From IMG/VR virus record IMGVR_UViG_3300029728_000017: a stretch of 51,722 bases of DNA, one strand, 5' to 3'. How positions within the stretch are numbered: the stretch's first letter is position 1; each line of letters begins with the position of its first letter. The translations under genes were made by a program, and so were the position numbers. Of the stretch, positions 3,109 to 51,722 are shown in pieces. The notes beneath the pieces are model-generated. The model was not told where the DNA came from and made no database searches. It worked only from the letters and a program-made list of their open reading frames with translations. The stretch is from a virus.

Positions 3109-3637
3109 CGTTTATCACCTCATTTCTGAACCGAATCGCATCAGATAGGTTCTTAAAATCTCTGCTTGTTTTCGCCCACTTGATATTCACGCGATATCCT
3201 TTTTTGTAGCGAATTATGTATTTCTCCCCGGTTGATGACGGTCTATAGCGGCCTTTTTGGTGACGCATAAGATGCCTCGATCGACCGACATTTTCTTTTT
3301 GCGTAACCCACTCCAAGTTATTTACCACATTATTGCTCCTGTTGTGATCGCGGTGATCGACAACCAAGTTTTCCCCTTCCGGTTTATCAAGAAACACTTC
3401 CGCTACAAGGCGATGAACATAATAATTAGTCCTTACTCCATTATCGCGGAGTGACACATAGGCGTACCCGTTTCCGTTGTTTCCTGGCGCCAAAACGTGT
3501 CCTTTATCCGTTCGCGGCGAAGTCCCACCGTGGCAATTATTTACAATCCGCGTTCTCGTTAGTGAGCGCAACCGTCCCATATTGCTTATTTCGTAAGCCC
3601 CTTCATAACCAGGAACGGGTTTCCAAATTTCACCCAT
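3098..3637 (-). CDS. HNH homing endonuclease (NUMOD4-like N-terminus plus HNH_3-type core)
   Basis: ORF track, 179 aa, with WKPVPGYEGAYEISNMGRLRS and VDHRDHNRSNNVVNNLEWVTQKEN. It is visibly AT-richer than its flanks and overlaps both neighbouring genes. Confidence 0.9.
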   Translation of the reverse strand: MGEIWKPVPGYEGAYEISNMGRLRSLTRTRIVNNCHGGTSPRTDKGHVLAPGNNGNGYAYVSLRDNGVRTNYYVHRLVAEVFLDKPEGENLVVDHRDHNRSNNVVNNLEWVTQKENVGRSRHLMRHQKGRYRPSSTGEKYIIRYKKGYRVNIKWAKTSRDFKNLSDAIRFRNEVINGAK

Positions 3638-36032: not shown

Positions 36033-36084
36033 AAAAAAAGAAAGAGGGGCTAACCAACTACAATTCGTAGTCAGTTAGCCCCTC
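36033..36084 (-). terminator. Strong intrinsic terminator closing the accessory island
   Basis: The minus strand reads GAGGGGCTAAC-tgactacgaattgtagttg-GTTAGCCCCTC, followed by TTTCTTTTTTT. Confidence 0.8.
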
Positions 36085-36168
36085 TCGGCTCTTCTCACTC
36101 ACCGCTTAGAGCGAGGTCGAATATTTGTTTGATTTATTATACCATACCACGCGACCGGTGGCAAGCGC

Positions 36169-40004: not shown

Positions 40005-41389
40005 TCAATTTCGCTTTGAGCTTCAGTCACAATGTCCTGCATCTTCGGCAGCGCCGCCTTTGCGGTCGCCTCGTCCTCGTTGAAATATTTTGCTCTAAAC
40101 TCCCAGTCATTCATGATCCCGGCGTTCAGCAGCTGCAAATCGCGGGAAAACTCGTTGTCCTTGGTTTCCTGATCGTCAAGGATACTGTCACCCCAATCGT
40201 AAGTAACCTCATACTCGCCATCCGCAGCCAGACCGTAGAGCGTGGCATACACATCCATTGCGTAAATCAACGCATCAAACGTGTGTTCAAGCGCCGTCTG
40301 GATGCTGCTAATCAGCACATACTTTCGCTGCTTGCCGCTTCTGATCTCTGTTGCAGTCTTTTCTACCGTCTGGGGGTCGGAAATATCACCGTAAGACAAG
40401 CCTACGTTAAACTCAATGCGCCGAATAACGTCCTGAAAGCCCTTGTAAACCGCGTCATTCCGCAGTTCAGGATTAAGGAACTGGTAGAAGTCGCCGTCAG
40501 CCGTAAAAGCGCCAATTTCAAACAGCCGCTTGTCAAACATGTTGGCCGTGCTTGTGTTGCCGTCCATCAGCACCTTGCGCTCACCGGACTTGTACTCCCA
40601 CCGCAGACGCTCCCACTGTTCATCGGCCTGTTTGATCAGTTCCACCGTCGCCGCGTCACCGTAGATGGACATGCCACACAAGCTGTTGGTATCCGCCGTG
40701 TTGGCGATAGGCGGCTTGAAGTAGGCGAACAACGGCCCGTCCATGTTCTGGATGGTCACTTCCTCCTGAATGTCCGCCCATTCCGGCACCACGTCCAGCG
40801 GCGCAGGCGCACCCACAGAGCCGGTAGAATCGCTGTAATACGCCTTGTTCTTGATGGTGTAAACAGTATCGGTCAGGTCGTGGGATTCCAGCCGCACATA
40901 ATACTTGCCATTGACCTTCACCGGCTTGTCGCGGAACACGCCGCCGATGCATCGCCCGGTCGGGTCAAACTTCGTCGGCTGAAAACCCGCCGCGCCGGTC
41001 ATGTCCACCAACAGCTTGTCTCCGTAGATGTAAGGCTTTAATGCCACACCGCCAAGCGCAAGCCCCAGCTCCAGCGCCTTGCCGAAGTTTTCTTTCGCCA
41101 ACTGAAAGCCATCGTTAAGATAGTCCGCCCGCTGGCTGCCCGTGATGTTGGCCGTAAACTCCACCAGCGTTGGCCGCGTCACCTCTCGGCAGATGGCGGC
41201 AGGCAGTCCCACCGCTTTCACATTGCAGTCCTGCCAGGGCGGCGTATTGACCAGCATTGCATACCATAGCGCGATCTGCTGCTCCATCGTCATGCTGACA
41301 GCCGGAGATGTGCCAAATTCCCGCTCGGCCACAGCCCGCGGGAACAGTGCGCGCCTTACCGTATTAACGAAATTTCCCAAAAAGCTCAT
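40001..41389 (-). CDS. Portal protein
   Basis: ORF track, 462 aa. Called from size and position between the large terminase and minor head protein genes. Confidence 0.88.
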   Translation of the reverse strand: MSFLGNFVNTVRRALFPRAVAEREFGTSPAVSMTMEQQIALWYAMLVNTPPWQDCNVKAVGLPAAICREVTRPTLVEFTANITGSQRADYLNDGFQLAKENFGKALELGLALGGVALKPYIYGDKLLVDMTGAAGFQPTKFDPTGRCIGGVFRDKPVKVNGKYYVRLESHDLTDTVYTIKNKAYYSDSTGSVGAPAPLDVVPEWADIQEEVTIQNMDGPLFAYFKPPIANTADTNSLCGMSIYGDAATVELIKQADEQWERLRWEYKSGERKVLMDGNTSTANMFDKRLFEIGAFTADGDFYQFLNPELRNDAVYKGFQDVIRRIEFNVGLSYGDISDPQTVEKTATEIRSGKQRKYVLISSIQTALEHTFDALIYAMDVYATLYGLAADGEYEVTYDWGDSILDDQETKDNEFSRDLQLLNAGIMNDWEFRAKYFNEDEATAKAALPKMQDIVTEAQSEIE

Positions 41390-42582
41390 CTTAACTCTCT
41401 CCTAAGTACAGTCTGGCATAGGTACCTGCACTGATCCATGCTGTGATCGTTCTCTTTGATGACCTTATCTTCTGCCGCTTCTGAATCCCAGCTATAAAGC
41501 CCAAACTCCTCAAACGTTTTCACGCAGCTCTCGTGGAATTTCAGCTTCCCGGCCTTGAGTAGCGCACCCGTCAGCCGAATTCCGTCCAACACGGCATTGT
41601 TGGCGTTCCACACGGGAAACTTGCCATGTCGCCGTATGCACTCCGCAAACGATGCGGCGCTGGGGTCAATGATGATCCGTTCGATCTTGTACCCAGCCGC
41701 AAAGCGTTCCAGGTCTTGGTAATATTCTTCATCCGTCTTCTGCCGGTTGGTCTTGCGCCCGCTGTGATAGTATTCCTTCTCCATCACAGCCTCGCCCTTG
41801 TGTACGCGCCACAGGCCAAACACTGTGGGATTCTGCGTACCGTAGTCGCAGCTGATGTAATACGTCCCCGGCCCACCGCGTTCACTTGTCACATTGACCC
41901 CCCGGGAAAACATAGGATATACCAGACCTTCGGCAATCACCCACAGCCCCCGGATATACCTGTCGTAGAACACGCCGGAAAACATTGCTTGATAGCGTTC
42001 CAGCGTTTTTTGAGATAAGCCAGGGTTGTCCGTCATTTCAAAATGCAGATACAGCGCGTTTCGCTCCTTGTTCCGCCGTATCCACTCTGTATAAAACCAG
42101 TGCTGCGGACTTCCCGGGTTACAGGAAAACCACAGCTTCGCACCGGCTACGGAGCAGCGGGTCAATGCCTGTTCCACAAACGAGCGCGGCATCAGAACAA
42201 CCTCGTCCAGCAGCACACCCGCCAACGTGCGGCCTTGGATCAGCGTATAGCTGGCCTCGTCCTTGCCGCCGAACACCTCAAAGTAATTCGTTACGGCTCC
42301 GCGCCGCACCTCAAGGATTTTGTCAGACCGCCGCCACCGGATAATATAACGCTCCTTCGTCAAAGACATGGACGTAAACGGAACGACTATGTTCTTCACG
42401 CACGAATCCACTGTCTTTCCGCAAATTCCAAACCTCTGTCCACTGAAATTTTCCGTCGCCCACTGCACAAACGCCCACATCATGATAGACGTTTTACCGG
42501 AACGCACAGCACCATCACAGATCAGCGCATCATAGTTTGTGTATGGAAAAGCCAGTATCTTGGCCTGCTTTCTGCTAATCAT
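41386..42582 (-). CDS. terL: Terminase large subunit (PBSX-type)
   Basis: ORF track, 398 aa. It has the Walker A CDGAVRSGKTS and a nuclease-domain C-terminus. Confidence 0.92.
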   Translation of the reverse strand: MISRKQAKILAFPYTNYDALICDGAVRSGKTSIMMWAFVQWATENFSGQRFGICGKTVDSCVKNIVVPFTSMSLTKERYIIRWRRSDKILEVRRGAVTNYFEVFGGKDEASYTLIQGRTLAGVLLDEVVLMPRSFVEQALTRCSVAGAKLWFSCNPGSPQHWFYTEWIRRNKERNALYLHFEMTDNPGLSQKTLERYQAMFSGVFYDRYIRGLWVIAEGLVYPMFSRGVNVTSERGGPGTYYISCDYGTQNPTVFGLWRVHKGEAVMEKEYYHSGRKTNRQKTDEEYYQDLERFAAGYKIERIIIDPSAASFAECIRRHGKFPVWNANNAVLDGIRLTGALLKAGKLKFHESCVKTFEEFGLYSWDSEAAEDKVIKENDHSMDQCRYLCQTVLRRELR

Positions 42583-42997
42583 CGCCTTGCAAGTCCTCCG
42601 CCAGTTCCCTCAGGCTTTGACTCAGCGCGTCATCCTTTGCGGTATCAGCAGGAGCGCCGCCAATCATGGCCCACTTGTCGATCACCGTGCCCATCGCAGT
42701 GGTAATTTGGCTCAGATTTGCCGCCGCCAACTTATCGGGGTCATTAAGCATTTCAAGCCCCTTGCCAATAAAGGAGCACACCATGTCTTTATGCGCATCC
42801 ATATACGCCAAAATGTCGGCGGTATTCTCCTCTTTTTTTTGCTCGCACTTTTTCACAATGTCCAAATTTGCAAGAACAATGTTCTTGACAGTTGTAGCAG
42901 AAACTCCATTTATTTTCGCGGTGGCGCAATAATTGTTCGTCTGCACATAGTCCGCCAGTATTTTCTTTTTCTGCCGGTCTGTCAGACGCGCGGCCAT
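42575..42997 (-). CDS. terS: Terminase small subunit
   Basis: ORF track, 140 aa. It has the N-terminal HTH YCATAKINGVSATTVKNIV and overlaps terL. Confidence 0.8.
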   Translation of the reverse strand: MAARLTDRQKKKILADYVQTNNYCATAKINGVSATTVKNIVLANLDIVKKCEQKKEENTADILAYMDAHKDMVCSFIGKGLEMLNDPDKLAAANLSQITTAMGTVIDKWAMIGGAPADTAKDDALSQSLRELAEDLQGDD

Positions 42998-43016: not shown

Positions 43017-43247
43017 CTATTCTTCTCCCTCTATCCGCTCGCCATCCACACGCACCAAACTCCGGAAACAACGAAAGTCATCGCAATACCCGCAAGTCGC
43101 GGCAATGTCCTGATGCTCTTTGTCCTTGTGCAATTTGCAGCCAATAGGCCCACCAGGTACACGTTTGCCGTCAACTACTACTGTGCCGTGTTTGACGTGG
43201 GTGCAGAAGTCACAGCATGGTGTGCAGTCTTTACCGCAGAGAATCAT
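43017..43247 (-). CDS. Cys-rich small protein
   Basis: ORF track, 76 aa. Contains CGKDCTPCCDFC and CGYCDDFRC. Confidence 0.65.
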   Translation of the reverse strand: MILCGKDCTPCCDFCTHVKHGTVVVDGKRVPGGPIGCKLHKDKEHQDIAATCGYCDDFRCFRSLVRVDGERIEGEE

Positions 43248-43612
43248 TTGCCATCCTCCTCTACCAACTCGCTATCCACCTGTATCAAGTCGTGGCTGCT
43301 GTCGCCTACATAGAAACGCGCCGTTTTGCCGTTTACCGTGCAGGTGCATATACCGTATTCCTTGGATATGATCTCCGCCGCTACATCAGACGGAACGCAG
43401 GTGATCCGATAGCATACAAACGTCTGCGAATGTTCTTTCCCTTTGATGTCGCGGTATCTGTCGTGTAGGCTATATTTGACCAGCAATGCCTTAATGTGCC
43501 GATCCAGTTCGTGGATGTAGACATCAAGCGCACCGTCTGGCGTTTCGCCTTTTTGCATGATTATGTTGCAGTGCATATCATTCTCCCAGAATACCGCTGA
43601 TTGTGTCAGCAT
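43244..43612 (-). CDS. Hypothetical protein
   Basis: ORF track, 122 aa. Confidence 0.7.
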   Translation of the reverse strand: MLTQSAVFWENDMHCNIIMQKGETPDGALDVYIHELDRHIKALLVKYSLHDRYRDIKGKEHSQTFVCYRITCVPSDVAAEIISKEYGICTCTVNGKTARFYVGDSSHDLIQVDSELVEEDGK

Positions 43613-43820
43613 TTGCCTTGATGATATCCATCACGATGTCGGACTGGATATTGTGCGCAAAAACGGCCTTGTCCGTCGCGTCTGCATTATAATAGCCGGT
43701 GAACACCGTGCCGTCTGCTTTTGTCGCTGCAAAGCAAATACAGCAAGGGTCAAGCCCTGCAATAGTTGCTATGCTTTCTTCAAGCCATTTGGCGTATGGC
43801 TGCTTTGTGATATCGTCCAT
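43578..43820 (-). CDS. Hypothetical protein
   Basis: ORF track, 80 aa. An SD GAGGAG lies upstream. Confidence 0.7.
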   Translation of the reverse strand: MDDITKQPYAKWLEESIATIAGLDPCCICFAATKADGTVFTGYYNADATDKAVFAHNIQSDIVMDIIKANADTISGILGE

Positions 43821-44445
43821 GCTGTTCTCCTCTTTGTTCGGCTTCCCGCTTAGATTGTCACGCGCTCATGCCCGCTTAAGGCCCCGCAAGCATCTCAAGC
43901 GCCACCGTTCGGTCATGGCAAGGAGGACGCATCCTCACGCGCAGTTTTCAGCGAGCATTGTCATTTCCACGTCGGGCATGCCGATACGCTCCGACATTGT
44001 CCGGGCGCTACCCGGCCTCTGGTGCGGCATTGCAGTCCTGCCCTGCTTTAGCGCTTCAAGGGAAAAGCCCCCGCCACTCGCTGTGGTCTCCCCTTACTGG
44101 GCACCTATGCCGCGTATTGGGCGTTTTCTTTCGGCTTCCGCCTATCCGCCTTGAGGAATACGCACAACCCTTCGGAACTCCACGGTAAACGCATGGCGGA
44201 GCGCCTACCGCTTCAATGTTCTGGCACACTTTCGGGCGGGACGCTATGCCACTTGCCTGCGGTAGTGCCGCACCGCTTTTTTCGTCGCGGATTCCGTCTC
44301 TACAGGCTCCGTATTGCCCAGCCGTTTTCTATGTGTCGGCACACTGTGACCGGATGGGAGGCGCGACCTCCCGCCCCTGATCGTGGGGTATCTCACGAAG
44401 TCCGGCGTATACCCGTCATATACCGCTGGCGGGAAAGCGGTTGAA
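43821..44445 (-). ncRNA. Candidate large structured ncRNA (ROOL/GOLLD-like class). The strand is not settled.
   Basis: About 625 nt with no credible ORF, GC-rich, with many short perfect helices. It is directly adjacent to a tRNA-like gene. See the findings. Confidence 0.4.
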
Positions 44446-44529
44446 TGGAGGCATTGGCGGGAATCGAACCCTGCATCGTCCATCGGCGGCAATTTCCGCC
44501 GTGCGCTCTTCCAACTGAGCTACAATGCC
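44446..44529 (-). tRNA. tRNA-like element of 84 nt with encoded CCA and a non-canonical anticodon arm. No anticodon can be assigned.
   Basis: It reads GGCATTG-TA-GCTC-AGTTGGAA-GAGC-G-[CACGGCGG-AAATTG-CCGCCGaTG]-GACGAT-GCaGGG-TTCGATT-CCCGC-CAATGCC-T-CCA. The acceptor stem and D arm are perfect, but the anticodon arm is an 8-bp stem closing a 6-nt loop. Confidence 0.6.
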
Positions 44530-44716
44530 GTGTGTGCCCGCCGCCGTGCAACGACGGGCCACAGAAAGGAGAATGAAAAATGAATGCAAGCAAGATGATG
44601 AATAGGAGGTGTCATAGGGTCTGCACGTCCCCATGACTATTGTACCACACTTTTTGCAATGTTTATAGTGCAAAAACGCGGATTTTCTAAAGTAGTTATT
44701 CTAATTAAACACTTTT

Positions 44717-45301
44717 TCACACTTCCTCGAAATACTTCACATCTCCGATGCTGCAAACGTAAATCTGCCCCTCGTGGTATTCGCTGTGTCCGGCGATCTG
44801 GGGATTATAAAACACCGTCGCGTTGCCGATGTCGGTAAATGTTTCGCCGTATACAAACACCTCGCAAAAGGCGTTTAGCGCCGCGTCAGACACCCAGCTT
44901 GCTGGGGTGGTGTACTGATACTCCCTGCATACGTCCTCCGGCGTGTAGCGGTTCCTGTGGCGATTGCAAGCGTTAAACAGGGCTTGTACAATGCCACGGC
45001 ACTGGTCGGCATCGTTTCCCGCTTCTGCCGTGACAATCTGAAGCACCTTCGACACATCGTAGCCGAAGGTCTCAAACTCTCGGTCCGTTCCGATGGCTGA
45101 AATCACCGCCTCCGCGCTTTTCTCCGCTTCGTCCGGGTCTTCGTATGCTTCTTCGTGCGGGCCGCCCTCGATCACCAGAATCGTGCGCTCCTCGTGTTCC
45201 GGCCCCTTCTCAGAAAAGCCTGTCAGCACCACCAGCGCCGCCGCCAGTATCAGCAGCACCCACGCAGCGGCAATAATGCGGTCATTTGTCGTTGGTTTCA
45301 T
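44717..45301 (-). CDS. Membrane-anchored SleB-like cell wall hydrolase (putative)
   Basis: Met 56 of ORF 44717..45466. It has the TM helix IIAAAWVLLILAAALVVL, and IVQALFNACNRHRNRYTPEDVCREYQYT resembles the Hydrolase_2 family. Confidence 0.5.
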   Translation of the reverse strand: MKPTTNDRIIAAAWVLLILAAALVVLTGFSEKGPEHEERTILVIEGGPHEEAYEDPDEAEKSAEAVISAIGTDREFETFGYDVSKVLQIVTAEAGNDADQCRGIVQALFNACNRHRNRYTPEDVCREYQYTTPASWVSDAALNAFCEVFVYGETFTDIGNATVFYNPQIAGHSEYHEGQIYVCSIGDVKYFEEV

Positions 45302-45548: not shown

Positions 45549-45673
45549 CACTCCACCTCCCATTTCAATTCTTCATACAGTTCAGCAAACCGCTTGTTCC
45601 ACTTCCGCATGCCGCGGAATACATACACGGCAAGTGCAATCCAGATAATTGATGCAATATCACTCATGCTCAT
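45548..45673 (-). CDS. Small single-TM protein
   Basis: An internal Met of ORF 45548..45754 lies 9 nt after GAGGAGG. Sequence MSMSDIASIIWIALAVYVFRGMRKW. Confidence 0.5.
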   Translation of the reverse strand: MSMSDIASIIWIALAVYVFRGMRKWNKRFAELYEELKWEVE

Positions 45674-45953
45674 GCTCATTCGCCTCCTCAATCCGCCCCG
45701 CCAGCCGTTCCAACTTGTACTGGCGGTACTTGTCCACAGTCTCCTTGCAGTCAAACAGAATCACCAACTGCTGAAGCATGATCTCCACGTCGGCGATCTC
45801 CTCCGCAATGTGCGGGGTGTTCTCCTGCCCTCTGCTGTTTTTGCAAAGCTCCTTTGTCGGTTCGCTCATTTCCTCGATGGCCATTGTCACCTGTAATTCC
45901 TTCCCGAAGGTTTCCAGCGCCGCCTGACAAATTGCGTTATCGTGTAGTATCAT
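45660..45953 (-). CDS. MazG-like nucleotide pyrophosphohydrolase (putative)
   Basis: ORF track, 97 aa. LQVTMAIEEMSEPTKEL...IAEEIADVEIMLQQL shows the EExxE...ExxD helix pattern. Confidence 0.55.
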   Translation of the reverse strand: MILHDNAICQAALETFGKELQVTMAIEEMSEPTKELCKNSRGQENTPHIAEEIADVEIMLQQLVILFDCKETVDKYRQYKLERLAGRIEEANEHEHE

Positions 45954-46810
45954 TTTGCGGTCACCACCGTATCAGCGCCCTGTACAGTCACCCAGCCATG
46001 CTTGAGACGCGCCTCCGCTTCCTTCATCTGGATTAGCTCCGGCGTAATGGATTCCGCAATGGTCTTGTTGGCTTTTGCCTCAGCTTCCGCCTCAATGATC
46101 TTTACAGCAGCCTCAGATTCAGCGATAACGCGATTTGTTTCTGCCTGCGCTTCCGCCGTCTGTTTGGCAAGTTCTGCGATCTCTGCATCCTGCTTGGCCT
46201 GCTCTTTTGCCCGTACCTTTTCCTGCAACGCGGAATCCAGTTCCACGTCAATGATCAGGGCACTGGACACGTTGATACCATACTCGGTACTAAGTTTCTC
46301 ATTCAGGTAGTCGGTAATAGCCTTGTTTACCTCTGACTTTTTGTCGGAATAGATGTCCATAACGGAGAATCTGGGGGTAACTTCCTTCACATAGGCAATA
46401 ATGCTGTTCTGCACGCGACCCTCTACAATGGCCTCTCCGTCCATGCCGTTAAATTTCTCGTACAGGCTCACCACGCGGTCAGGCAGGAAATTGTAGTTGA
46501 CCGTCAGGTTAATGCCCACCATGCCGCCGTTGGCAGGGGCATCAATATGCCAATCTGCATGTTCGTCTGTGTTGTAGTCAGATGGATCGTCGGAAAAAAC
46601 AATCTGCTGCTGACTAACGGGAAACTGCTTGACGTGCTTCAATGGTGATAGCCAATGCCAGCCCTGTGTCAGCGTGTTTTGCTCCACGCCCTTTGCGGAA
46701 TACACAACGCCCACATAGCCCACCTTGATTCTTGTCAGGCAGATGATGCAGAAAACAGCAACAACCACCGCCAGCACGGCGGAAACAGCAATAGCGATAC
46801 CTTTTTTCAT
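45950..46810 (-). CDS. SPFH/band-7 (prohibitin/HflC-like) membrane protein
   Basis: ORF track, 286 aa. It has an N-terminal TM helix, an SPFH-like core (VGVVYSAKGVEQNTLTQGWHWLSP) and an Ala/Glu-rich coiled coil. Confidence 0.8.
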   Translation of the reverse strand: MKKGIAIAVSAVLAVVVAVFCIICLTRIKVGYVGVVYSAKGVEQNTLTQGWHWLSPLKHVKQFPVSQQQIVFSDDPSDYNTDEHADWHIDAPANGGMVGINLTVNYNFLPDRVVSLYEKFNGMDGEAIVEGRVQNSIIAYVKEVTPRFSVMDIYSDKKSEVNKAITDYLNEKLSTEYGINVSSALIIDVELDSALQEKVRAKEQAKQDAEIAELAKQTAEAQAETNRVIAESEAAVKIIEAEAEAKANKTIAESITPELIQMKEAEARLKHGWVTVQGADTVVTAK

Positions 46811-47115
46811 GACTTTTTACCTCCAAAAATGTTATAAATTACGACAAACGATACGCCAAATACAATGATGAATAGTGTGATAATCTCTTTCATCTTTTTT
46901 CCCTCCGGCGTACTTAACGCCGCCAGATTAAACCGCAGCCCCTCATTGGCCTGCCGCAGCGCTTCTATCTCCCGCTGCTGGTTCTCGATCAGGTAGGTGG
47001 CGAGACCCGCCATTTTTTCAATGCAGTCTGGGTCGTCAAGTCCAATCGGGCATTCATTACATCCCGCTTTTTCGGCACAGCACCGCAGCGCGGTCACGAT
47101 CTCATCTCTTGTCAT
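46807..47115 (-). CDS. Cys-rich protein with a C-terminal TM helix
   Basis: Met 12 of ORF 46807..47148 lies 6 nt after AAGAGGAGG. Contains ALRCCAEKAGCNECP...DPDC and ends IITLFIIVFGVSFVVIY. Confidence 0.65.
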   Translation of the reverse strand: MTRDEIVTALRCCAEKAGCNECPIGLDDPDCIEKMAGLATYLIENQQREIEALRQANEGLRFNLAALSTPEGKKMKEIITLFIIVFGVSFVVIYNIFGGKKS

Positions 47116-47128
47116 GTCATTCCTCCTC

Positions 47129-48001
47129 TTACCCAGTAAATTCTTCAAAGCTGCACGACTGGAACGCCGCCCGCATATTTACCCATCGTGCAAGGCGCTT
47201 CTGTTCGGCAGTCGGCTCTCCGCCGTCGTAGTCGCGGTACGGCTGGGCAAACGGCTCCACGCCCATGTCCCGCAAGGCAAGAATGCGCTTATAGCTTTCC
47301 TCCACATCCTGCACAAGTACATAGCACCAAAAACGCCACGGCCGCACACCCGCCTCTTCCAGATACGCCGTGGCCTGTTTGATTACCGGCAGCATGGTAG
47401 AGGTGTCACAGCTCATGCGGACAAACCTGATCCATTTCAGCCCTGCCAACAGCTTTGCCGTCTGCGGCGTGATGAGCCGTGCGTCCAAGCCCTGATTAAA
47501 GTCCACCCGCACATTCTCATGCCCCATGCGCTCGATCTGCTCTAAGCCGTGGTCGTGCGCCAAAACGTTGTTGTCCATGAAAATGATGTCCCGGCTGTCA
47601 GGGCGTTTTACTTCCTCCCATGTTGCCGCCGGTCGGATAAGCCCTTCTTTCTTCGGCACGATGCACCAAGGGCAGTTGCGGATGCAGCCGCGTGTTAGAA
47701 AGCCGATGGCCGGTTTCCACGCCGGATACAGCGAGTAGTCAGGTCGCATTCTCTCTACCTCGTCCGGCAGAGCGCCGTAATCCTTGTAGCCTGTGCCGCC
47801 TGTAATAATCTCATCGGCATTGATGCAGGTATCCACATCAGGGGAAAACGTAAAAACCTTACTCATGTACACCCGGTCATAGTGTTTGAACCCGTCCCAC
47901 CACTCCACGCTGTCACAACGGGCTTTGTAGTAGGCAGACAGCCGCATCAATGCGAGGTTCGGAAAGTTGTGACCGTCTACGTCGATCAATCCAATGTTCA
48001 T
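47129..48001 (-). CDS. Radical SAM enzyme
   Basis: ORF track, 290 aa. It has a CX3CX2C cluster in FLTRGCIRNCPWCIVP. The start lies 3 nt after the stop of 91-aa gene copy 2. Confidence 0.8.
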   Translation of the reverse strand: MNIGLIDVDGHNFPNLALMRLSAYYKARCDSVEWWDGFKHYDRVYMSKVFTFSPDVDTCINADEIITGGTGYKDYGALPDEVERMRPDYSLYPAWKPAIGFLTRGCIRNCPWCIVPKKEGLIRPAATWEEVKRPDSRDIIFMDNNVLAHDHGLEQIERMGHENVRVDFNQGLDARLITPQTAKLLAGLKWIRFVRMSCDTSTMLPVIKQATAYLEEAGVRPWRFWCYVLVQDVEESYKRILALRDMGVEPFAQPYRDYDGGEPTAEQKRLARWVNMRAAFQSCSFEEFTG

Positions 48002-48004
48002 GTC

Positions 48005-48280
48005 TCAATCTCCAAACACAACGCCGCACTCGTCCTTCAGCATATCCTTGATGTGCTTCCGCTTGATGCGGCCTTCGTTTATCTCCTCTGCCAGCTTTTC
48101 CAGGCACTCATACAGATACGCGATGCTCTGCGTGTCCCGGCTGTCCGATGTCTCCTCAAAGACGTGCCAGCCGCATTTGTCCATCAGCACCATTGCCACC
48201 ATGTCCATGTTCTCCTGTGTGCCTTGCAGCTTGCCACGCATAAAGATGCGGTCGTCCCTGCTCAAATGCTGTTTACCCAT
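48005..48280 (-). CDS. Hypothetical 91-aa protein, copy 2 of the duplicated gene (paralog of 688..963)
   Basis: ORF track. Its protein matches copy 1 at 83 of 91 residues, and the DNA similarity begins and ends at the ORF boundaries. Confidence 0.8.
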   Translation of the reverse strand: MGKQHLSRDDRIFMRGKLQGTQENMDMVAMVLMDKCGWHVFEETSDSRDTQSIAYLYECLEKLAEEINEGRIKRKHIKDMLKDECGVVFGD

Positions 48281-48281
48281 C

Positions 48282-49364
48282 TCAATACCTCACTCCTATG
48301 TAGTCCAGCACCCGCGCATAGCCAAGGCCGTCTTTCGTGGGTTTCCACAGCCCATCCGTGTCGAATGCCCCGCCGCCGATGCAGAACGCATAGTGCTTCG
48401 GGTGCGTGTGCTTCATGCACTCAAACCGGTTTTCTCCTTTTTCGAGGTGTGCCCCGAACGCGCAAAACATGCACCCCGTCCTCTGGCACCCCGTGCAATG
48501 CAGCGGCTTTTCGATTAGCGTTGACGGATAATCATTCTCGCCGTCGCTCGCCACGATGTTGCCGTATACGCTGCAATACGGGATGTTTTCGTCCTTTAGG
48601 AACGCAAGCACGTCCTGTTCTGTCCAGAAGCTCATAGGCTTGCTCATGGGGCGCTTGCCGTCAAAGGCGTTGCAGCCCGTGCGCTTCCACTCTTTTTCTC
48701 GCTGCTGGCTCTCGCTCGCCATCATCGCGGTAAATGGCACACATCCGCTCGTAGCTTCGTATCGCTTGGCGGGTGCTTTTTTCATCACGTCGCAGCATTG
48801 CTCGCTAATGCGGAACGGCGCATCCTTGAGATAATGCCACTTGTCCGCCAGTTTCATCGTCGAGCAGTAAACGCCCTTCCGGTTGTATCCGGTCAGATAC
48901 AGATTGACCGTTGCATCGTTCTGCCCGTGCGCGTTTTGTAAATCGCGGATAAAGCGCGCCTGTTTTTTGCCGATGACGGGATACCCGTGCTTTGCTATGA
49001 CCTGCCGAATGTTGAGCTTTGGCCTCAGCCGCACGAGCTGCACCTTGATCCGCGGGAACTTCCTTTGCAGCCAATCCGCGTACTCATTGACGAATTTCTG
49101 AATTTCAGGGTATTCCAGCCCTGTGTTCACAAACACCAGATTCAGCTCCCACGGCGGTGTCCTGAAGCTCGACAGGTACCGCGCCGCCAGATACGCCAGC
49201 ACCGTGCTATCCTTTCCGCCGGAGAAACTGACGTAGCACTGCCCGCCCCATGCGGTGTACCATTCGTCTAGCTTTTCGTAGGTCAGTATCTCCTTGTCCT
49301 GCACGTCCAGCGCCATCAGTTTCTTCGCCGCTTCATTCGTCAGCGGCTGATTGATTGGCAGCAT
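48282..49364 (-). CDS. PAPS-reductase-family PP-loop protein (DndC-like) with a C-terminal Cys cluster
   Basis: ORF track, 360 aa. It has the PP-loop VSFSGGKDSTV and the C-terminal cluster HCTGCQRTGCMFCAFG. Confidence 0.8.
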   Translation of the reverse strand: MLPINQPLTNEAAKKLMALDVQDKEILTYEKLDEWYTAWGGQCYVSFSGGKDSTVLAYLAARYLSSFRTPPWELNLVFVNTGLEYPEIQKFVNEYADWLQRKFPRIKVQLVRLRPKLNIRQVIAKHGYPVIGKKQARFIRDLQNAHGQNDATVNLYLTGYNRKGVYCSTMKLADKWHYLKDAPFRISEQCCDVMKKAPAKRYEATSGCVPFTAMMASESQQREKEWKRTGCNAFDGKRPMSKPMSFWTEQDVLAFLKDENIPYCSVYGNIVASDGENDYPSTLIEKPLHCTGCQRTGCMFCAFGAHLEKGENRFECMKHTHPKHYAFCIGGGAFDTDGLWKPTKDGLGYARVLDYIGVRY

Positions 49365-50404
49365 TACTCAGCCTCCACCAACTTGCCGTTTACCAGCTTA
49401 TACCATGTGTCCGCTCTGATGTCCGTGCCGTCTACGACAAACGCTTTCCACTCTTTGATGTCCCAATTGTCCTCGTTTTCCTCACAGATCACCAGCACAG
49501 CACCAAGACCGCCTTTAATCTTCACATCGTTACCTCGAACAAGGCCGCATCCATTTTTGCCAACAGAAACAGATCCTTTTGCGGTGGCTGCGCCGCGATA
49601 GCCTGCGGTGGCTGCGCCGTAAGCGCCTGCGGTGGCTGCGCCGCTATCGCCTGCGGTGGCTGCGCCGTAAGCGCCTGCGGCGGCTGCGCCGCTATCGCCT
49701 GCGGTGGCTGCGCCGTAAGCGCCTGCGGTGGCTGCGCCGTAAGCGCCTGCGGTGGCTGCGCCGTAAGCGCCTGCGGTGGCTGCGCCGCGATAGCCTGCGG
49801 TGGCTGCGCCGTAAGCGCCTGCGGCGGCTGCGCCGCTATCGCCTGCGGTGGCTGCGCCGTAAGCGCCTGCGGTGGCTGCGCCGCTATCGCCTGCGGTGGC
49901 TGCGCCGCGATAGCCTGCGGTGGCTGCGCCGTAAGCGCCTGCGGTGGCTGCGCCGTAAGCGCCTGCGGTGGCTGCGCCGCTATCGCCTGCGGTGGCTGCG
50001 CCGCTATCGCCTGCGGTGGCTGCGCCGCTATCGCCTGCGGTGGCTGCGCCGCAAGCGCCTGCGGTGGCTGCTTTCTGGTCGGTATGTTCCATTGTGGTAT
50101 GCGCCTTGACGTACTCAACGTGAGCCTTTACCAGACCGGGAATGCCGATCTCCGCGCCCACCGTAAGCTTCTTGGCAACGCGCTTGCTATCATCTCCACG
50201 TTCGTCGCTCACGCCGTCCATTTCCACTTCGCAATACCGGCTTCCTTCGCCGGGCGCGTAATATCTGAACACATCCAACGGCGCTTCACAAGCGTGCAAG
50301 CCCTGATTGCACAGCTTCACTTTGTCAACTTCCTGCGTGCCGCCGATCTCATACTGCAAACCTCTGCACTGCAAATTCTTGTCAAAACCCTTGTAAGCTT
50401 TCAT
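49364..50404 (-). CDS. Octapeptide-repeat protein: a globular N-terminal domain, 20.5 copies of GAATAG(DS/AY/YR), and a globular C-terminal domain
   Basis: ORF track, 346 aa. The flanking non-repeat domains fix the frame (MKAYKGFDKNLQCRGLQYEIGG...LHACEAPLDVFRYY and ...WKAFVVDGTDIRADTWYKLVNGKLVEAE). The stop overlaps the next start. Confidence 0.8.
   Translation of the reverse strand: MKAYKGFDKNLQCRGLQYEIGGTQEVDKVKLCNQGLHACEAPLDVFRYYAPGEGSRYCEVEMDGVSDERGDDSKRVAKKLTVGAEIGIPGLVKAHVEYVKAHTTMEHTDQKAATAGACGAATAGDSGAATAGDSGAATAGDSGAATAGAYGAATAGAYGAATAGYRGAATAGDSGAATAGAYGAATAGDSGAAAAGAYGAATAGYRGAATAGAYGAATAGAYGAATAGAYGAATAGDSGAAAAGAYGAATAGDSGAATAGAYGAATAGYRGAATAKGSVSVGKNGCGLVRGNDVKIKGGLGAVLVICEENEDNWDIKEWKAFVVDGTDIRADTWYKLVNGKLVEAE
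49580..50071 (-). repeat. Tandem array of 20.5 copies of a 24-bp unit, in frame within 49364..50404
   Basis: The plus-strand unit is gcggtggctgcgccg-NNNNNN-cctg, with three recurrent cores: gctatcgc (Asp-Ser), gtaagcgc (Ala-Tyr) and gcgatagc (Tyr-Arg). Confidence 0.95.
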
Positions 50405-50515
50405 TTTTCATTCTCCTTATCGATATCTTCTTGCTGAAATCTCCGTAATGGCATAGCCGTATCTGGCGTGAAACATTCGGGCCTTGATAGAGTAGCTTTC
50501 AGTCCTTACCCCCTT

Positions 50516-51722
50516 CTATACCGCCACGCAGTCCATCAGCTGCGCCATTGTCGTTATGGTCACGCCGCACCACTCCGGCAGGTTGGCCCGCACCAGAGCG
50601 GACGCCACCGGCGGGCAGACGGCATTGCCGCACCGCGCCACCTGTGCGCTCTTTTTGTACTTATTGCCCTCATAATCACGGTCAATGATGTAATCCGGCG
50701 GGAATCCCATAGCGTTGTACAGCTCACGGGGCGACAGCATCCGCAGTCCGATATCCGCGATGTAGTACAGTGCGCCGCCGATCTCCAGCAGCAACACATC
50801 ATCATCCGCCAGCGCATAGCCGCAGAATTCATTCAGCAGGGCGCGAATCTCGGGCCAGTGGCCCAGATCGTCACCGCTGCGCATCTTTGCCAGATACGCC
50901 TTGCACACGGCGAACTCCCCGGCGCTGGTGGTCACTGTCTGCATCGGCTCATCTGCCCCATGCCCCAGGTTGTCACCCTTGAACTTTACAACATGGGCGG
51001 CGACCACCGCCTCACGGTCGTGGCTGGTAACGGTGTGCATGGGGTCTTGCACATCCAGCGGCCTGCCGCCGGTGTAATACTCCACCAGATTGGCGCAGGT
51101 CAGGCCGTATCGGTTGGAGGCGTCCACCGTGTGGATAGGCGTCCCCAGCCCGGATGCCCGAACGTGTTCCGTCTGTTCCGTGTGATACTGGATCAGCGCG
51201 GGCGCCACGATGCCGCCGGTATGCTTGGCGGTGATGGTCTTGTGAGCATCCGTCACAGGTGCAATATGCCCGCCGCCAGAGTGGTTGCACTCCGCAAGGA
51301 AGGGCGTTACCAGCATCTGATTCCCTGCGGTCGTTACGGTATGTACCGGCGCTCCGACCGTCCCGCCCACGCTGTTGCTGGTGTTGGTCACCGTCACAGG
51401 TGCCAGCAGCGGCTTGCACAATTCATGCGCTCCTACCGCCGTAACAGTCGTCAATGGCTTTTCGATGTTCTGCGCAGCGTTCTGGAATTTCTGCTGTACG
51501 ATGAACGGCTTGCCGCTGCGGATGGTGAACTTGTCCACGCCCCGGATGATCCGCCGCATAGTGTTCTTCGCCAGCGGGCGCACCGCTTTCAGGCCGTATT
51601 TGTCCATGATCTGCGCCTTAGATGCAAATACCGACGGGCAGGGCAGCGACCAGTCGATGATCTCCGATGCACAGCGCCACTTGGGCAGTCCATCCGCGCC
51701 GGTTTTGCTGTGGGTGGGCTTC
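50516..51722 (-). CDS. DNA (cytosine-5)-methyltransferase, C-terminal part, with an expanded target-recognition region (same gene as 1..665)
   Basis: ORF track 50516..51607, and the frame stays open to the window end. It has RMLSPRELYNAMGFPPDY (motif IX) and CGNAVCPPVA (motif X). The joined gene is 1773 nt, or 590 aa. Confidence 0.9.
   Translation of the reverse strand, partial: KPTHSKTGADGLPKWRCASEIIDWSLPCPSVFASKAQIMDKYGLKAVRPLAKNTMRRIIRGVDKFTIRSGKPFIVQQKFQNAAQNIEKPLTTVTAVGAHELCKPLLAPVTVTNTSNSVGGTVGAPVHTVTTAGNQMLVTPFLAECNHSGGGHIAPVTDAHKTITAKHTGGIVAPALIQYHTEQTEHVRASGLGTPIHTVDASNRYGLTCANLVEYYTGGRPLDVQDPMHTVTSHDREAVVAAHVVKFKGDNLGHGADEPMQTVTTSAGEFAVCKAYLAKMRSGDDLGHWPEIRALLNEFCGYALADDDVLLLEIGGALYYIADIGLRMLSPRELYNAMGFPPDYIIDRDYEGNKYKKSAQVARCGNAVCPPVASALVRANLPEWCGVTITTMAQLMDCVAV
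51624..51722. repeat. Terminal overlap identical to 1..99
   Basis: See the feature at 1..99. Confidence 0.95.

What the first reader, a model, noticed from the sequence alone, without database searches (positions are those of the whole stretch)
43821..44445. ORF-free, helix-dense region of about 625 nt beside a tRNA-like gene: candidate giant ornate ncRNA (ROOL/GOLLD class or a new relative)
Seen in sequence:
- Most intergenic gaps in this tightly packed genome are under about 120 nt, yet 43821-44445 has no credible ORF on either strand.
- The track ORFs here (43699..44154+, 43958..44188+, 44151..44444+, 44244..44492-) overlap each other and lack Shine-Dalgarno sites. They are Arg/Pro/Ser/Cys-rich, as random frames in GC-rich DNA are, and one runs through the tRNA-like gene.
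- The stretch is packed with short perfect helices: GAGGA-cgca-TCCTC (43923-43936), CCGGG-cgcta-CCCGG (44001-44015), GGGAGG-cgcga-CCTCCC (44356-44372) and GTATA-cccgtca-TATAC (44407-44423).
- It abuts the tRNA-like element at 44446-44529.
- A minus-strand extended -10 TGgTACAAT lies upstream at about 44639-44647.

Established knowledge: the large ROOL and GOLLD RNAs occur in Firmicutes prophages, typically next to tRNA genes, and their function is unknown.

Inference: this is a member or relative of that class. I cannot confirm the consensus by eye. The strand is also open, because a plus-strand terminator-like GCGGT-agtgccgc-ACCGC-TTTTTT sits at 44259-44282.
Basis: partly seen in the sequence, partly recalled or inferred. 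Interest (0 to 1): 0.85.

Follow-up and report, generated by a model that had tools for sequence, protein, structure and literature searches.

The report
Phage array of small structured RNAs
The gene-free stretch is not one giant RNA but a string of small folded RNAs on the minus strand of a gut phage: one known "drum" RNA plus several widespread unnamed ones, including tRNA look-alikes, placed just ahead of the DNA-packaging genes.

Summary
43821-44445 has no credible gene, every quoted hairpin is at its stated coordinates, and a tRNA-like gene abuts the interval.

No ROOL, GOLLD, OLE, HEARO or raiA match exists, even at E<=10. Rfam finds a full-length drum RNA (RF02958, 82 bits against a cut-off of 43) at 44116-44221 on the minus strand.

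Comparison with about 290 gut-phage contigs shows a mosaic of modules, all on the minus strand, that recur in different orders and combinations:
- **C** (44346-44410): a junction of three helices.
- **F+E** (44222-44350): always travels with this type of drum.
- **A** (44020-44113): a 92-nt cloverleaf ending in CCA, called by neither tRNA tool.
- **B** (about 43840-44019): about 180 nt, with a long-range helix and a swappable central domain.

B and C show clear compensatory base changes, 97-99% paired against 33-51% in slid controls. B nearly always starts 2-3 nt after the CCA or CAA end of a tRNA or tRNA look-alike.

The best reading is a promoter-driven multi-RNA precursor, cut at its tRNA-shaped elements. 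A, B and C are absent from Rfam 15.

The parts
44639..44647 (-). Extended -10 promoter element TGGTACAAT, the likely start of the RNA array transcript.
   Evidence: Read from the sequence. It is identical in the relatives L084, L048 and L032. A TGnTAnAAT lies at a fixed distance (179 or 255-283 nt) upstream of module C in 30 of 76 distinct contexts, against a background of 0.03 per 450 nt. The consensus promoter scan did not list it because there is no good -35.
44530..44638 (-). Transcribed leader between the promoter and the first tRNA-like element. Its structure is unresolved.
   Evidence: Homologs occur in only 10 closely related loci.
44446..44529 (-). T1: a tRNA-like element with normal acceptor, D and T arms and an encoded CCA. 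Its anticodon arm is aberrant (8 bp with a bulge and a 6-nt loop) and carries no stable anticodon.
   Evidence: ARAGORN calls it 'Phe(aaa)'. Rfam tRNA scores 35.9 bits against a cut-off of 29, with 24 nt where the model expects 17. The fold is shown. The anticodon region differs by substitutions and indels among near-identical relatives, and ARAGORN calls '???(ggaa)' in L048.
44410..44445 (-). Short linker with two small hairpins, including GTATA...TATAC. Its status is open.
   Evidence: Found in only 11 closely related loci, so no covariation test is possible.
44346..44410 (-). Module C: a 6-bp outer stem enclosing two hairpins (CCCC-ACGAUCA-GGGG and GGGAGG-UCGCG-CCUCCC).
   Evidence: The profile finds it in 134 of the 285 sources searched (284 fetched loci plus the window). 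Of the pair cells, 98.8% are paired against 38-51% when slid. The outer stem changes GGA/UCC to GUG/CAC to GCA/UGC, and the hairpin changes GGGAGG/CCUCCC to GAGAGG/CCUCUC. There is no Rfam hit.
44222..44350 (-). Segments F and E: about 130 nt that always accompany this type of drum, possibly a 5' extension of the drum RNA.
   Evidence: All the contigs carrying this drum subtype that were inspected share these bases, while the sequence after drum differs. F also occurs without drum in 8 further loci. The sequences are too alike for a covariation test.
44116..44221 (-). drum RNA (Rfam RF02958).
   Evidence: It scores 82 bits against a gathering score of 43, with E = 5.6e-14 and model positions 1-112 of 112. 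All model helices are formed. The same hit appears in L048, L084 and L040.
44020..44113 (-). Module A: a 92-94 nt cloverleaf-shaped RNA. It has a 7-bp terminal stem (GCGGCAU/AUGCCGC), a long 'D' arm with a GUAA loop, a long arm with a variable tip and no anticodon, and a 4-bp 'T' arm, and it ends in ACCA.
   Evidence: Its 16-mer occurs in at least 119 viral contigs. The profile finds it in 168 of the 285 sources searched. Homology among loci starts at G1 and stops after CCA. RNAalifold gives a cloverleaf. ARAGORN does not call it, and the Rfam tRNA model misses it even at E<=10.
43840..44019 (-). Module B: a structured RNA of about 180 nt. It has two 5' hairpins, a long-range helix (CUCGCU/AGCGGG) and three GACAAU motifs. 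Its central domain exists in at least four versions.
   Evidence: The profile finds it in 170 of the 285 sources searched. There are 31 pairs, 97.3% paired against 33-51% when slid, and 10 pairs change on both sides. It starts 2-3 nt after CCA or CAA of a tRNA, tRNA-like element or module A in nearly all of 83 contexts. There is no Rfam hit.
43578..43833 (-). Shine-Dalgarno GAGGAG (43826-43831) and the first downstream gene (80 aa, 43578-43820), followed by the small and large terminase genes.
   Evidence: ORF list and sequence. The large terminase is identified by PHROG and Pfam. No minus-strand terminator lies between the array and this gene.

Best explanation
The interval is the body of a promoter-driven array of small structured RNAs on the minus strand of a temperate gut phage. 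It sits at the head of the DNA-packaging (late) gene block.

The order is: promoter, leader, tRNA-like T1, linker, C, F+E+drum, A, B, then the first late gene. The modules are separate units, not domains of one fold.

**Proposed mechanism (inferred).** The array is transcribed as one precursor. It is then cut by the host tRNA-processing enzymes at its tRNA-shaped elements. RNase P would cut at the 5' end of T1 and of A. The 3' maturation nucleases would cut at their CCA ends. This releases drum (with its F+E extension), A and B as discrete stable RNAs, and it leaves the late mRNA with a defined, structured 5' end. Here A plays the part that a terminator plays after drum RNAs elsewhere.

**Shown.**
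- The identity of drum.
- The strand.
- The modular make-up.
- Conserved base pairing in B and C.
- The rule that B follows a CCA or CAA end.

**Inferred.**
- Co-transcription.
- The cleavage sites.
- That the products act in trans.

What the released RNAs then do is unknown. The strong sequence conservation of A and of B's unpaired stretches points to binding of a conserved host or phage factor, probably one that handles tRNA.

The confidence given (0.55) is for the whole statement including the processing mechanism. For the architecture alone (a minus-strand mosaic of separate RNA modules including drum) I would put it at about 0.9.
For: - **drum.** Full-length Rfam hit of 82 bits on the minus strand.
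- **Mosaic structure.** Blast shows the pieces in permuted order in other contigs. All eight presence/absence combinations of A, B and C occur among the 285 sources searched, and each module is single copy.
- **Breakpoints at module ends.** Near-identical relatives diverge exactly after A's CCA. Homology to A begins at G1. Homology ends right after drum.
- **Structure.** B is 97.3% paired and C 98.8% paired, against 33-51% for slid controls. The compensatory changes include a long-range helix in B.
- **Strand.** 146 G.U cells in B. Pairing drops to 82.5% if B is read on the other strand.
- **Punctuation.** B starts 2-3 nt after CCA or CAA in nearly all of 83 contexts. In 79 classified contexts the upstream element is a called tRNA in 40, and otherwise mostly an anticodon-less tRNA look-alike, A, or the CCA-ended module D. 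In 66 loci B is also followed directly by A. Modules are preceded by AU-rich AAUAU linkers.
- **Transcription.** A conserved extended -10 sits at a fixed distance upstream. The window has no minus-strand terminator inside the array. In L023 a terminator-like hairpin with a U run, read by eye, follows A, so the array may be a transcription unit of its own there.
- **Context.** Terminase, portal-region and capsid genes lie downstream. DNA-modification genes lie upstream.
Against: - There are no expression or end-mapping data, so co-transcription and cleavage are not shown.
- A is so conserved (partly because of how it was seeded) that its cloverleaf rests on few compensatory changes. Position 1/72 shows an A.C mismatch in 2 of the 38 aligned sequences, carried by five loci.
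- Single-sequence folding energies are not better than shuffles.
- tRNA genes with an encoded CCA are not RNase Z substrates in Firmicutes, so the enzyme that would free B's 5' end is unclear.
- C has no CCA-like end, so the punctuation model does not explain its ends.
- The window has no terminator before the first gene, which equally fits a purely cis-acting leader.
Confidence: 0.55

Rival explanations
1. One giant ornate RNA of the ROOL/GOLLD class or a new relative. The whole 625 nt would fold as a single conserved architecture.
For: - The stretch is a long gene-free region next to a tRNA-like gene in a phage.
- In near relatives the whole stretch from the promoter to A is about 95% identical.
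- F+E+drum do travel together as a unit of about 235-270 nt.
Against: - There is no ROOL, GOLLD, OLE, HEARO or raiA hit at the gathering score or at E<=10.
- The modules occur separately and in either order.
- Their breakpoints coincide with the ends of self-contained folds.
- The MFE is no better than shuffles.
Confidence: 0.03
2. A purely cis-acting leader of the late (packaging) operon. The folded elements would control read-through, stability or translation of the downstream mRNA and would not be released as separate RNAs.
For: - Arrays of this kind sit directly upstream of late-operon genes in the window and in the related loci inspected: a ParB-like gene, a small-terminase-like gene or the 80-aa gene, as read by eye from the translated starts.
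- The window has no terminator between B and the first gene.
- In the window, L040 and L048, B's 3' end lies within about 25 nt of the start codon.
Against: - Most copies of B are followed by A, not by a gene (66 against 7).
- In L023 the array ends in a terminator-like hairpin.
- drum is described as a stand-alone RNA that is rarely in a 5' UTR (PMC5737381).
- The array contains real tRNAs in many loci.
- A regulatory leader would not be expected to tolerate free reshuffling of its parts.
Confidence: 0.17
3. B is a processing element for the tRNA in front of it, possibly a new self-cleaving ribozyme. It would define the 3' end of the upstream tRNA or tRNA mimic, as HDV-like theta ribozymes do in other gut phages.
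For: - B begins 2-3 nt after the 3' end of a tRNA-shaped element in nearly all of 83 contexts, whatever the tRNA type.
- Its unpaired stretches are highly conserved and its peripheral domain is swappable, as in many ribozymes.
- There is a precedent: theta ribozymes lie within 5 nt of gut-phage tRNA ends (PMC10879173).
Against: - B's predicted topology is not HDV-like. Its first helix is a local hairpin with a 5-nt loop.
- No hit to any self-cleaving ribozyme family in Rfam at E<=10.
- The upstream tRNAs already encode CCA or CAA, unlike the tRNAs beside theta ribozymes, of which 4.5% encode CCA.
- The window encodes no CCA-adding enzyme or RNA ligase.
- The adjacency is equally explained if the tRNA serves to process B.
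Confidence: 0.1
4. The CCA-ended tRNA look-alikes (T1, A and related elements) are decoys or sponges for host factors that act on tRNA ends. Examples would be tRNA-targeting defence toxins or tRNA-modifying enzymes. The other modules would be unrelated passengers.
For: - Acceptor, D and T arms and the CCA are kept while the anticodon arm decays or is lost.
- A is over 90% identical across otherwise different phages.
- A's 23-mer is essentially absent from the representative genomes of 185,579 bacterial and archaeal species, with a single hit, so it is a phage invention.
Against: - No partner or target has been identified.
- It does not explain B, C or drum.
- It is compatible with, rather than an alternative to, the processing model.
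Confidence: 0.08
5. A DNA-level element (cos or pac site, origin, attachment site), or a protein-coding region missed by annotation.
For: - The position just upstream of the terminase genes is where cos sites often lie.
- ORFs of 76-151 aa can be drawn across the interval.
Against: - The many G.U pairs work on one strand only.
- There are Rfam drum and tRNA hits.
- The ORFs overlap one another, have no Pfam hit, and are cut by module boundaries.
- Compensatory changes preserve helices, not codons.
Confidence: 0.02

Closest known systems
drum RNA (Rfam RF02958; Weinberg et al. 2017, PMC5737381)
   Same: The stretch 44116-44221 (minus strand) is a full-length, high-scoring member of this family. 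As described for the family, its function is unknown. From memory of the family description, not tested here: drum RNAs occur near tRNA genes and in phages.
   Different: The paper describes drum RNAs as followed by a Rho-independent terminator. Here drum is followed 2 nt later by the tRNA-shaped module A. It is also always preceded by about 130 conserved nt (F+E) that the 112-nt model does not cover. The protein association mentioned in the paper could not be checked, and no DUF3800 gene is in the window.
ROOL and GOLLD RNAs
   Same: Phage or prophage setting, proximity to tRNA genes, unknown function (PMC5737381).
   Different: There is no sequence or structure match. ROOL and GOLLD are large RNAs with a single conserved architecture: ROOL averages 581 nt (PMC5737381), and about 800 nt for GOLLD is from memory. 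They form homo-oligomeric complexes (PMC12286853). Here the units are 65-270 nt and are reshuffled among phages.
HDV-like theta ribozymes of gut phages (Kienbeck et al. 2024, PMC10879173)
   Same: A structured RNA placed within a few nucleotides of the 3' end of phage tRNAs of many isotypes, in uncultured gut Caudoviricetes. This is the same positional rule that B follows.
   Different: Theta ribozymes are a refined minimal HDV-like motif with a catalytic C. They are found mostly in Bacteroidota phages, next to tRNAs that lack CCA. B is about 180 nt with a different predicted topology, has no HDV-family hit, and follows CCA- or CAA-ending elements. No cleavage has been shown.
Stable small RNAs in the phage T4 tRNA gene cluster (species 1 and 2 RNAs).
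   Same: Non-tRNA stable RNAs of unknown function, co-transcribed with phage tRNAs and matured by the host tRNA-processing enzymes.
   Different: No sequence relation was tested. The T4 RNAs are two fixed genes in one phage group. Here there are at least five modules that recombine freely among hundreds of gut-phage contigs.
tRNA-punctuated processing (mitochondrial transcripts, MALAT1-mascRNA, tRNA-snoRNA genes). Recalled from memory.
   Same: tRNA-shaped elements used as cleavage signals that release neighbouring RNAs.
   Different: These are eukaryotic or organellar systems. In bacteria and phages this has not been described for anticodon-less tRNA mimics, and it is only inferred here.

Membership tests
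ROOL (Rfam) and GOLLD (Rfam) | A match to the family covariance model | tested here: not met
   There is no hit at the gathering score on the whole window. There is none at E<=10 on 43500-44800, both strands.
ROOL and GOLLD | One large conserved multi-junction architecture (about 580 nt for ROOL, about 800 nt for GOLLD from memory) | tested here: not met
   The interval breaks into modules of 65-270 nt that occur independently and in permuted order.
OLE, HEARO, raiA | A match to the family covariance model | tested here: not met
   No hits.
drum RNA (RF02958) | Covariance-model score at or above the curated gathering score, over the full model | tested here: met
   82 bits against 43, model positions 1-112 of 112, E = 5.6e-14, all helices formed.
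drum RNA (RF02958) | Followed by a Rho-independent terminator (as described in PMC5737381) | tested here: not met
   No minus-strand terminator was found. Module A starts 2 nt after the end of the hit. This is a typical accompaniment rather than part of the model.
drum RNA (RF02958) | Association with a particular nearby protein family (PMC5737381; the details are in a supplement that is not held) | not testable with these tools
   The supplement is not available. No DUF3800 appears among 83 window ORFs.
tRNA (RF00005): element T1, 44446-44529 | Cloverleaf match, plus a 7-nt anticodon loop with a usable anticodon | tested here: inconclusive
   It scores 35.9 bits against 29 and ARAGORN calls it. 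The anticodon arm is 24 nt instead of 17, with a 6-nt loop. It varies by indels among near-identical relatives. It is best called tRNA-like.
tRNA (RF00005): module A, 44020-44113 | A match to the tRNA model, or an ARAGORN call | tested here: not met
   It is not called and has no hit at E<=10. Only the shape (7-bp terminal stem, three arms, NCCA) resembles a tRNA.
HDV-like / theta ribozymes: module B | Position within a few nt of a tRNA 3' end | tested here: met
   B begins 2-3 nt after CCA or CAA in nearly all of 83 contexts.
HDV-like / theta ribozymes: module B | Nested double-pseudoknot topology (P1 enclosing P2 and P3) and a match to the HDV family models | tested here: not met
   B's first helix closes a 5-nt loop, which leaves no room for P2 and P3. 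There is no HDV-family hit at E<=10.
HDV-like / theta ribozymes: module B | Self-cleavage at the 5' boundary | not testable with these tools
   This needs an in vitro transcription and cleavage assay.

The most novel reading that the evidence does not exclude
A, B and C (and perhaps D, E and F) would be new families of phage RNAs that form a toolkit built around tRNA ends. Anticodon-less, CCA-ended tRNA mimics would act as processing signals or decoys. B would be a new class of tRNA-linked catalytic or processing RNA, working like theta ribozymes with an unrelated fold. Hundreds of uncultured gut phages would use this toolkit at the switch to late gene expression.
Probability: 0.12. Interest if true: 0.85.

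Novelty: new variant of a known kind. Interest (0 to 1): 0.6.

Why it matters
Phage tRNA clusters are usually read as codon-usage aids. Here a large group of uncultured gut phages carries, at a fixed place ahead of the packaging genes, a reshufflable set of small folded RNAs.

Most of these RNAs are in no RNA family database. Each of three seed scans stopped at its limit of about 120 contigs. The set includes tRNA look-alikes that keep only the parts recognised by tRNA-processing enzymes.

The finding gives three things:
- A natural context for drum RNA, whose function has been open since 2017.
- At least three further well-supported RNA families to name and test.
- A concrete, testable rule: B always follows a CCA end. 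That rule suggests either tRNA-guided RNA processing or a new tRNA-end processing RNA.

It also warns annotators that such shared modules can break metagenome assemblies and can be mistaken for ORFs in GC-rich DNA.

Tried and rejected
- **Folding energies.** The whole interval and each module, compared with shuffles, give no useful signal: z from -2.2 to +0.6.
- **ORFs.** Pfam on the four ORFs inside the interval and Pfam and PHROG on the small flanking ORFs gave nothing. Only the 249-aa upstream ORF hits a PHROG of unknown function.
- **GenBank phage collection.** A and B occur in one unannotated faecal contig only, so no cultured phage or host can be assigned. Large-terminase relatives are too distant to assign a host.
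- **Bacterial and archaeal genomes.** A 23-mer of A gave one hit, in a metagenome-assembled genome. A is therefore not a host gene and not an attachment-site remnant.
- **tmRNA or permuted tmRNA.** Considered because of the permuted A/B order. Rejected because A is self-contained, ARAGORN finds no tmRNA, and the order simply varies.
- **HDV-like or hatchet ribozyme for B.** The topology does not fit and there is no Rfam hit.
- **tRNA-Sec or long-variable-arm tRNA for A.** Considered because of the long D stem with a 4-nt loop. Rejected because there is no 7-nt anticodon loop and the tip varies.
- **Module E.** I tried to define a structure by comparing the window with L098. The pairings differ, so it is left unresolved.
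- **Supplements.** Those of PMC5737381 (drum details) and PMC10690425 (8,495 unnamed IMG/VR candidate RNAs) are not held. I therefore cannot say whether A, B or C already carry a 'DNAVirus_n' label.
- **Not used.** The metagenome scan, protein homology and structure tools were not needed.
Full report
**Observation**

The four hairpins, the minus-strand TGGTACAAT at 44647..44639 and the plus-strand terminator-like site at 44259-44282 are all there. ARAGORN and the Rfam tRNA model both call a tRNA-like gene at 44446-44529 on the minus strand.

The ORFs that can be drawn through 43821-44445 overlap one another and have no Pfam hit. The non-coding stretch in fact runs from 43821 to 44716, about 900 nt.

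The one part of the observation that does not stand by itself is 'helix-dense'. The minimum free energy of the 625 nt is no better than that of shuffled sequence (z = -0.54 on the minus strand, +0.48 on the plus strand). The same is true module by module. The helices are shown to be real by comparison with other sequences, not by energy.

**Setting**

The window is a temperate tailed phage or prophage. It encodes an integrase, HTH repressors, an antirepressor, an amidase, a scaffold protein, minor capsid proteins and a large terminase.

On the minus strand the interval lies between a block of accessory and DNA-modification genes and the packaging genes. The upstream block holds SPFH, radical SAM, PAPS-reductase-like, MazG-like and methylase genes. 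The packaging block holds an 80-aa gene at 43578-43820, two small ORFs, a 140-aa ORF in the small-terminase position and the large terminase at 41386-42582.

**Known families**

A scan of the whole window against Rfam 15 gives three hits at the curated thresholds:
- drum RNA (RF02958) at 44116-44221 on the minus strand: 82 bits against a gathering score of 43, full length.
- The tRNA-like gene.
- A gut-2 RNA far away, at 36071-36118.

A permissive scan (E<=10) of 43500-44800 adds nothing credible. In particular it gives no ROOL, GOLLD, OLE, HEARO, raiA, tmRNA or self-cleaving ribozyme family.

**The rest of the interval is a mosaic**

A distant blastn search of GenBank phages found one unannotated faecal contig. 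It matches only 43833-44117, carries a 105-nt insertion, and places the match between two tRNA genes, with no drum.

Exact-seed scans of IMG/VR were run with short conserved words from three different parts of the interval. Blast and profile searches over the 284 fetched loci plus the window show that the interval consists of separable modules, all on the minus strand.

*Module A (44020-44113)*
- It is a 92-94 nt RNA whose ends pair (GCGGCAU/AUGCCGC) and which ends in ACCA.
- RNAalifold gives a cloverleaf. It has a 7-bp terminal stem and a 3+4-bp arm closed by GUAA. It has a long arm with an internal loop and a variable tip, so no constant anticodon. It has a 4-bp arm with the 7-nt loop GGCAGGA.
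- Homology among loci begins at G1 and ends after CCA.
- Neither ARAGORN nor the tRNA model recognises it.
- It is over 90% identical across phages with unrelated flanks. Its 23-mer occurs once in the representative genomes of 185,579 bacterial and archaeal species.

*Module B (about 43840-44019)*
- It has two 5' hairpins and a long-range helix (CUCGCU with AGCGGG), in which C-G changes to G-C in six sequences.
- It has three GACAAU motifs in unpaired stretches.
- Its central domain exists in at least four unrelated versions, each closed by its own stem.
- On 30 distinct sequences, 97.3% of pair cells are standard pairs, against 33-51% when the partners are slid. Ten pairs change on both sides.

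*Module C (44346-44410)*
- A 6-bp outer stem encloses two hairpins.
- The outer stem changes GGA/UCC to GUG/CAC to GCA/UGC. One hairpin changes GGGAGG/CCUCCC to GAGAGG/CCUCUC.
- 98.8% of cells are paired, against 38-51% when slid.

*Segments F and E (44222-44350)*
- They accompany drum in all the contigs with this drum subtype that were inspected, whereas the sequence after drum differs.
- drum may therefore be part of an RNA of about 235-270 nt here.
- The sequences are too similar to one another to test pairing.

**Strand**

drum and the tRNA-like gene are on the minus strand. B contains 146 G.U cells. Its pairs are 97.3% standard on the minus sense and 82.5% on the other strand.

An extended -10 is identical in close relatives. 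The motif lies at a fixed distance upstream of C in 30 of 76 distinct contexts, against a background of 0.03 per 450 nt.

**Not one RNA**

- All eight presence/absence combinations of A, B and C occur among the 285 sources searched. Each module is single copy.
- B is directly followed by A in 66 loci. The window's order, A then B, occurs in 7.
- Relatives that are about 95% identical to the window from the promoter to A's CCA switch to a different module exactly after the CCA.

**A positional rule**

In nearly all of 83 distinct contexts, B's first hairpin starts 2-3 nt after a CCA or CAA. Of 79 classified contexts:
- 40 have a normal tRNA of various isotypes upstream.
- 2 have module A upstream.
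- 37 are neither. Nearly all of the examples inspected are one of two things. Some are tRNA-shaped elements with good acceptor, D and T arms and a truncated or aberrant anticodon arm. The others are module D, which also has a terminal stem followed by ACCA.

The window's own T1 belongs to this anticodon-defective class. Its anticodon arm has 8 bp with a bulge and a 6-nt loop, and it differs by indels among near-identical relatives. Modules are commonly preceded by AAUAU.

**Interpretation**

The anatomy fits a multi-RNA precursor punctuated by tRNA-shaped elements. RNase P would cut at the 5' ends of T1 and A, and this would also make drum's 3' end, 2 nt upstream of A. The tRNA 3'-end pathway would free whatever follows a CCA, including B. 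This mechanism is inferred. No expression or end data are available.

Rival or complementary readings:
- A purely cis-acting late-operon leader. The window has no terminator before the first gene. Against this, B is usually followed by A rather than by a gene, and in L023 the array ends in a terminator-like hairpin.
- B as a processing RNA for the upstream tRNA. The closest precedent is the HDV-like theta ribozymes found within 5 nt of gut-phage tRNA ends (PMC10879173). B does not have that topology and matches no ribozyme family.
- tRNA mimics as decoys for tRNA-directed host factors.

DNA-level and coding explanations are excluded by the strand-specific G.U pairs, the Rfam hits and the compensatory changes.

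**Novelty**

drum here is simply another member of a known family, in a new arrangement: followed by a tRNA mimic instead of a terminator, and preceded by a conserved extension. A, B and C are absent from Rfam 15. They are also absent from all but one of 50,697 GenBank phage records.

They may be among the 8,495 unnamed IMG/VR candidates of Fremin et al. 2023 (PMC10690425). That supplement is not held. Stable non-tRNA RNAs inside phage tRNA clusters are known in principle (T4, from memory). I therefore rate the whole as a new variant of a known kind, of moderate to high interest.

The underlying hunch (conserved structured RNA beside a tRNA gene in a phage) is.

Noticed in passing
window 36071-36118 (minus strand): An Rfam gut-2 RNA (RF02990) scores 47 bits against a cut-off of 39.8, in a short gap among the capsid and structural genes. 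The same hit is present in relative L084.
   Followed up: no
L057, L054, L140, L035, L064, L119, L120 and others (elements directly upstream of module B): Many related phage contigs carry tRNA-shaped genes with normal acceptor, D and T arms and a CCA or CAA end. Their anticodon arm is shortened, replaced or missing, and ARAGORN does not call them. L072 and L023 carry 82-84 nt 'tRNAs' with 9-nt anticodon loops, called Asp(atc).
   Followed up: partly
L001 about 3140-3243 (minus strand); also L084, L048 and L032 directly after module A: A further module, D, is about 105 nt long. Its ends pair (CCACAC/GUGUGG) and it ends in ACCA. It sits between A and B in L001, and it replaces B after A in the window's closest relatives.
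   Followed up: partly
L098, L072, L023, L015, L002 and L007 (just upstream of the first gene after the array): A conserved 60-110 nt element ends in ...GGCCAAGGGGYGGGGGCUGGUAGCAAA, followed by a Shine-Dalgarno site. It precedes ParB-like or small-terminase-like genes. It is absent from the window, where B abuts the first gene.
   Followed up: no
L036, L104, L117, L030, L009 and L011 (matches at the very ends of loci or contigs): Several IMG/VR contigs or held stretches end inside or next to the RNA modules. Nearly identical modules shared by different phages may break metagenome assemblies at this spot.
   Followed up: no
window 45660-51607 (minus strand): Upstream of the array lies a run of accessory genes: a MazG-like NTP pyrophosphohydrolase, an SPFH/Band-7 protein, a radical SAM protein, a PAPS-reductase/PP-loop protein, DUF7666 and a cytosine methylase-like protein. 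This could be a DNA- or nucleotide-modification block.
   Followed up: no
window 43017-43247 (minus strand): A 76-aa cysteine-rich ORF lies just upstream of the 140-aa ORF that sits in the small-terminase position (42575-42997). It has no family hit.
   Followed up: no
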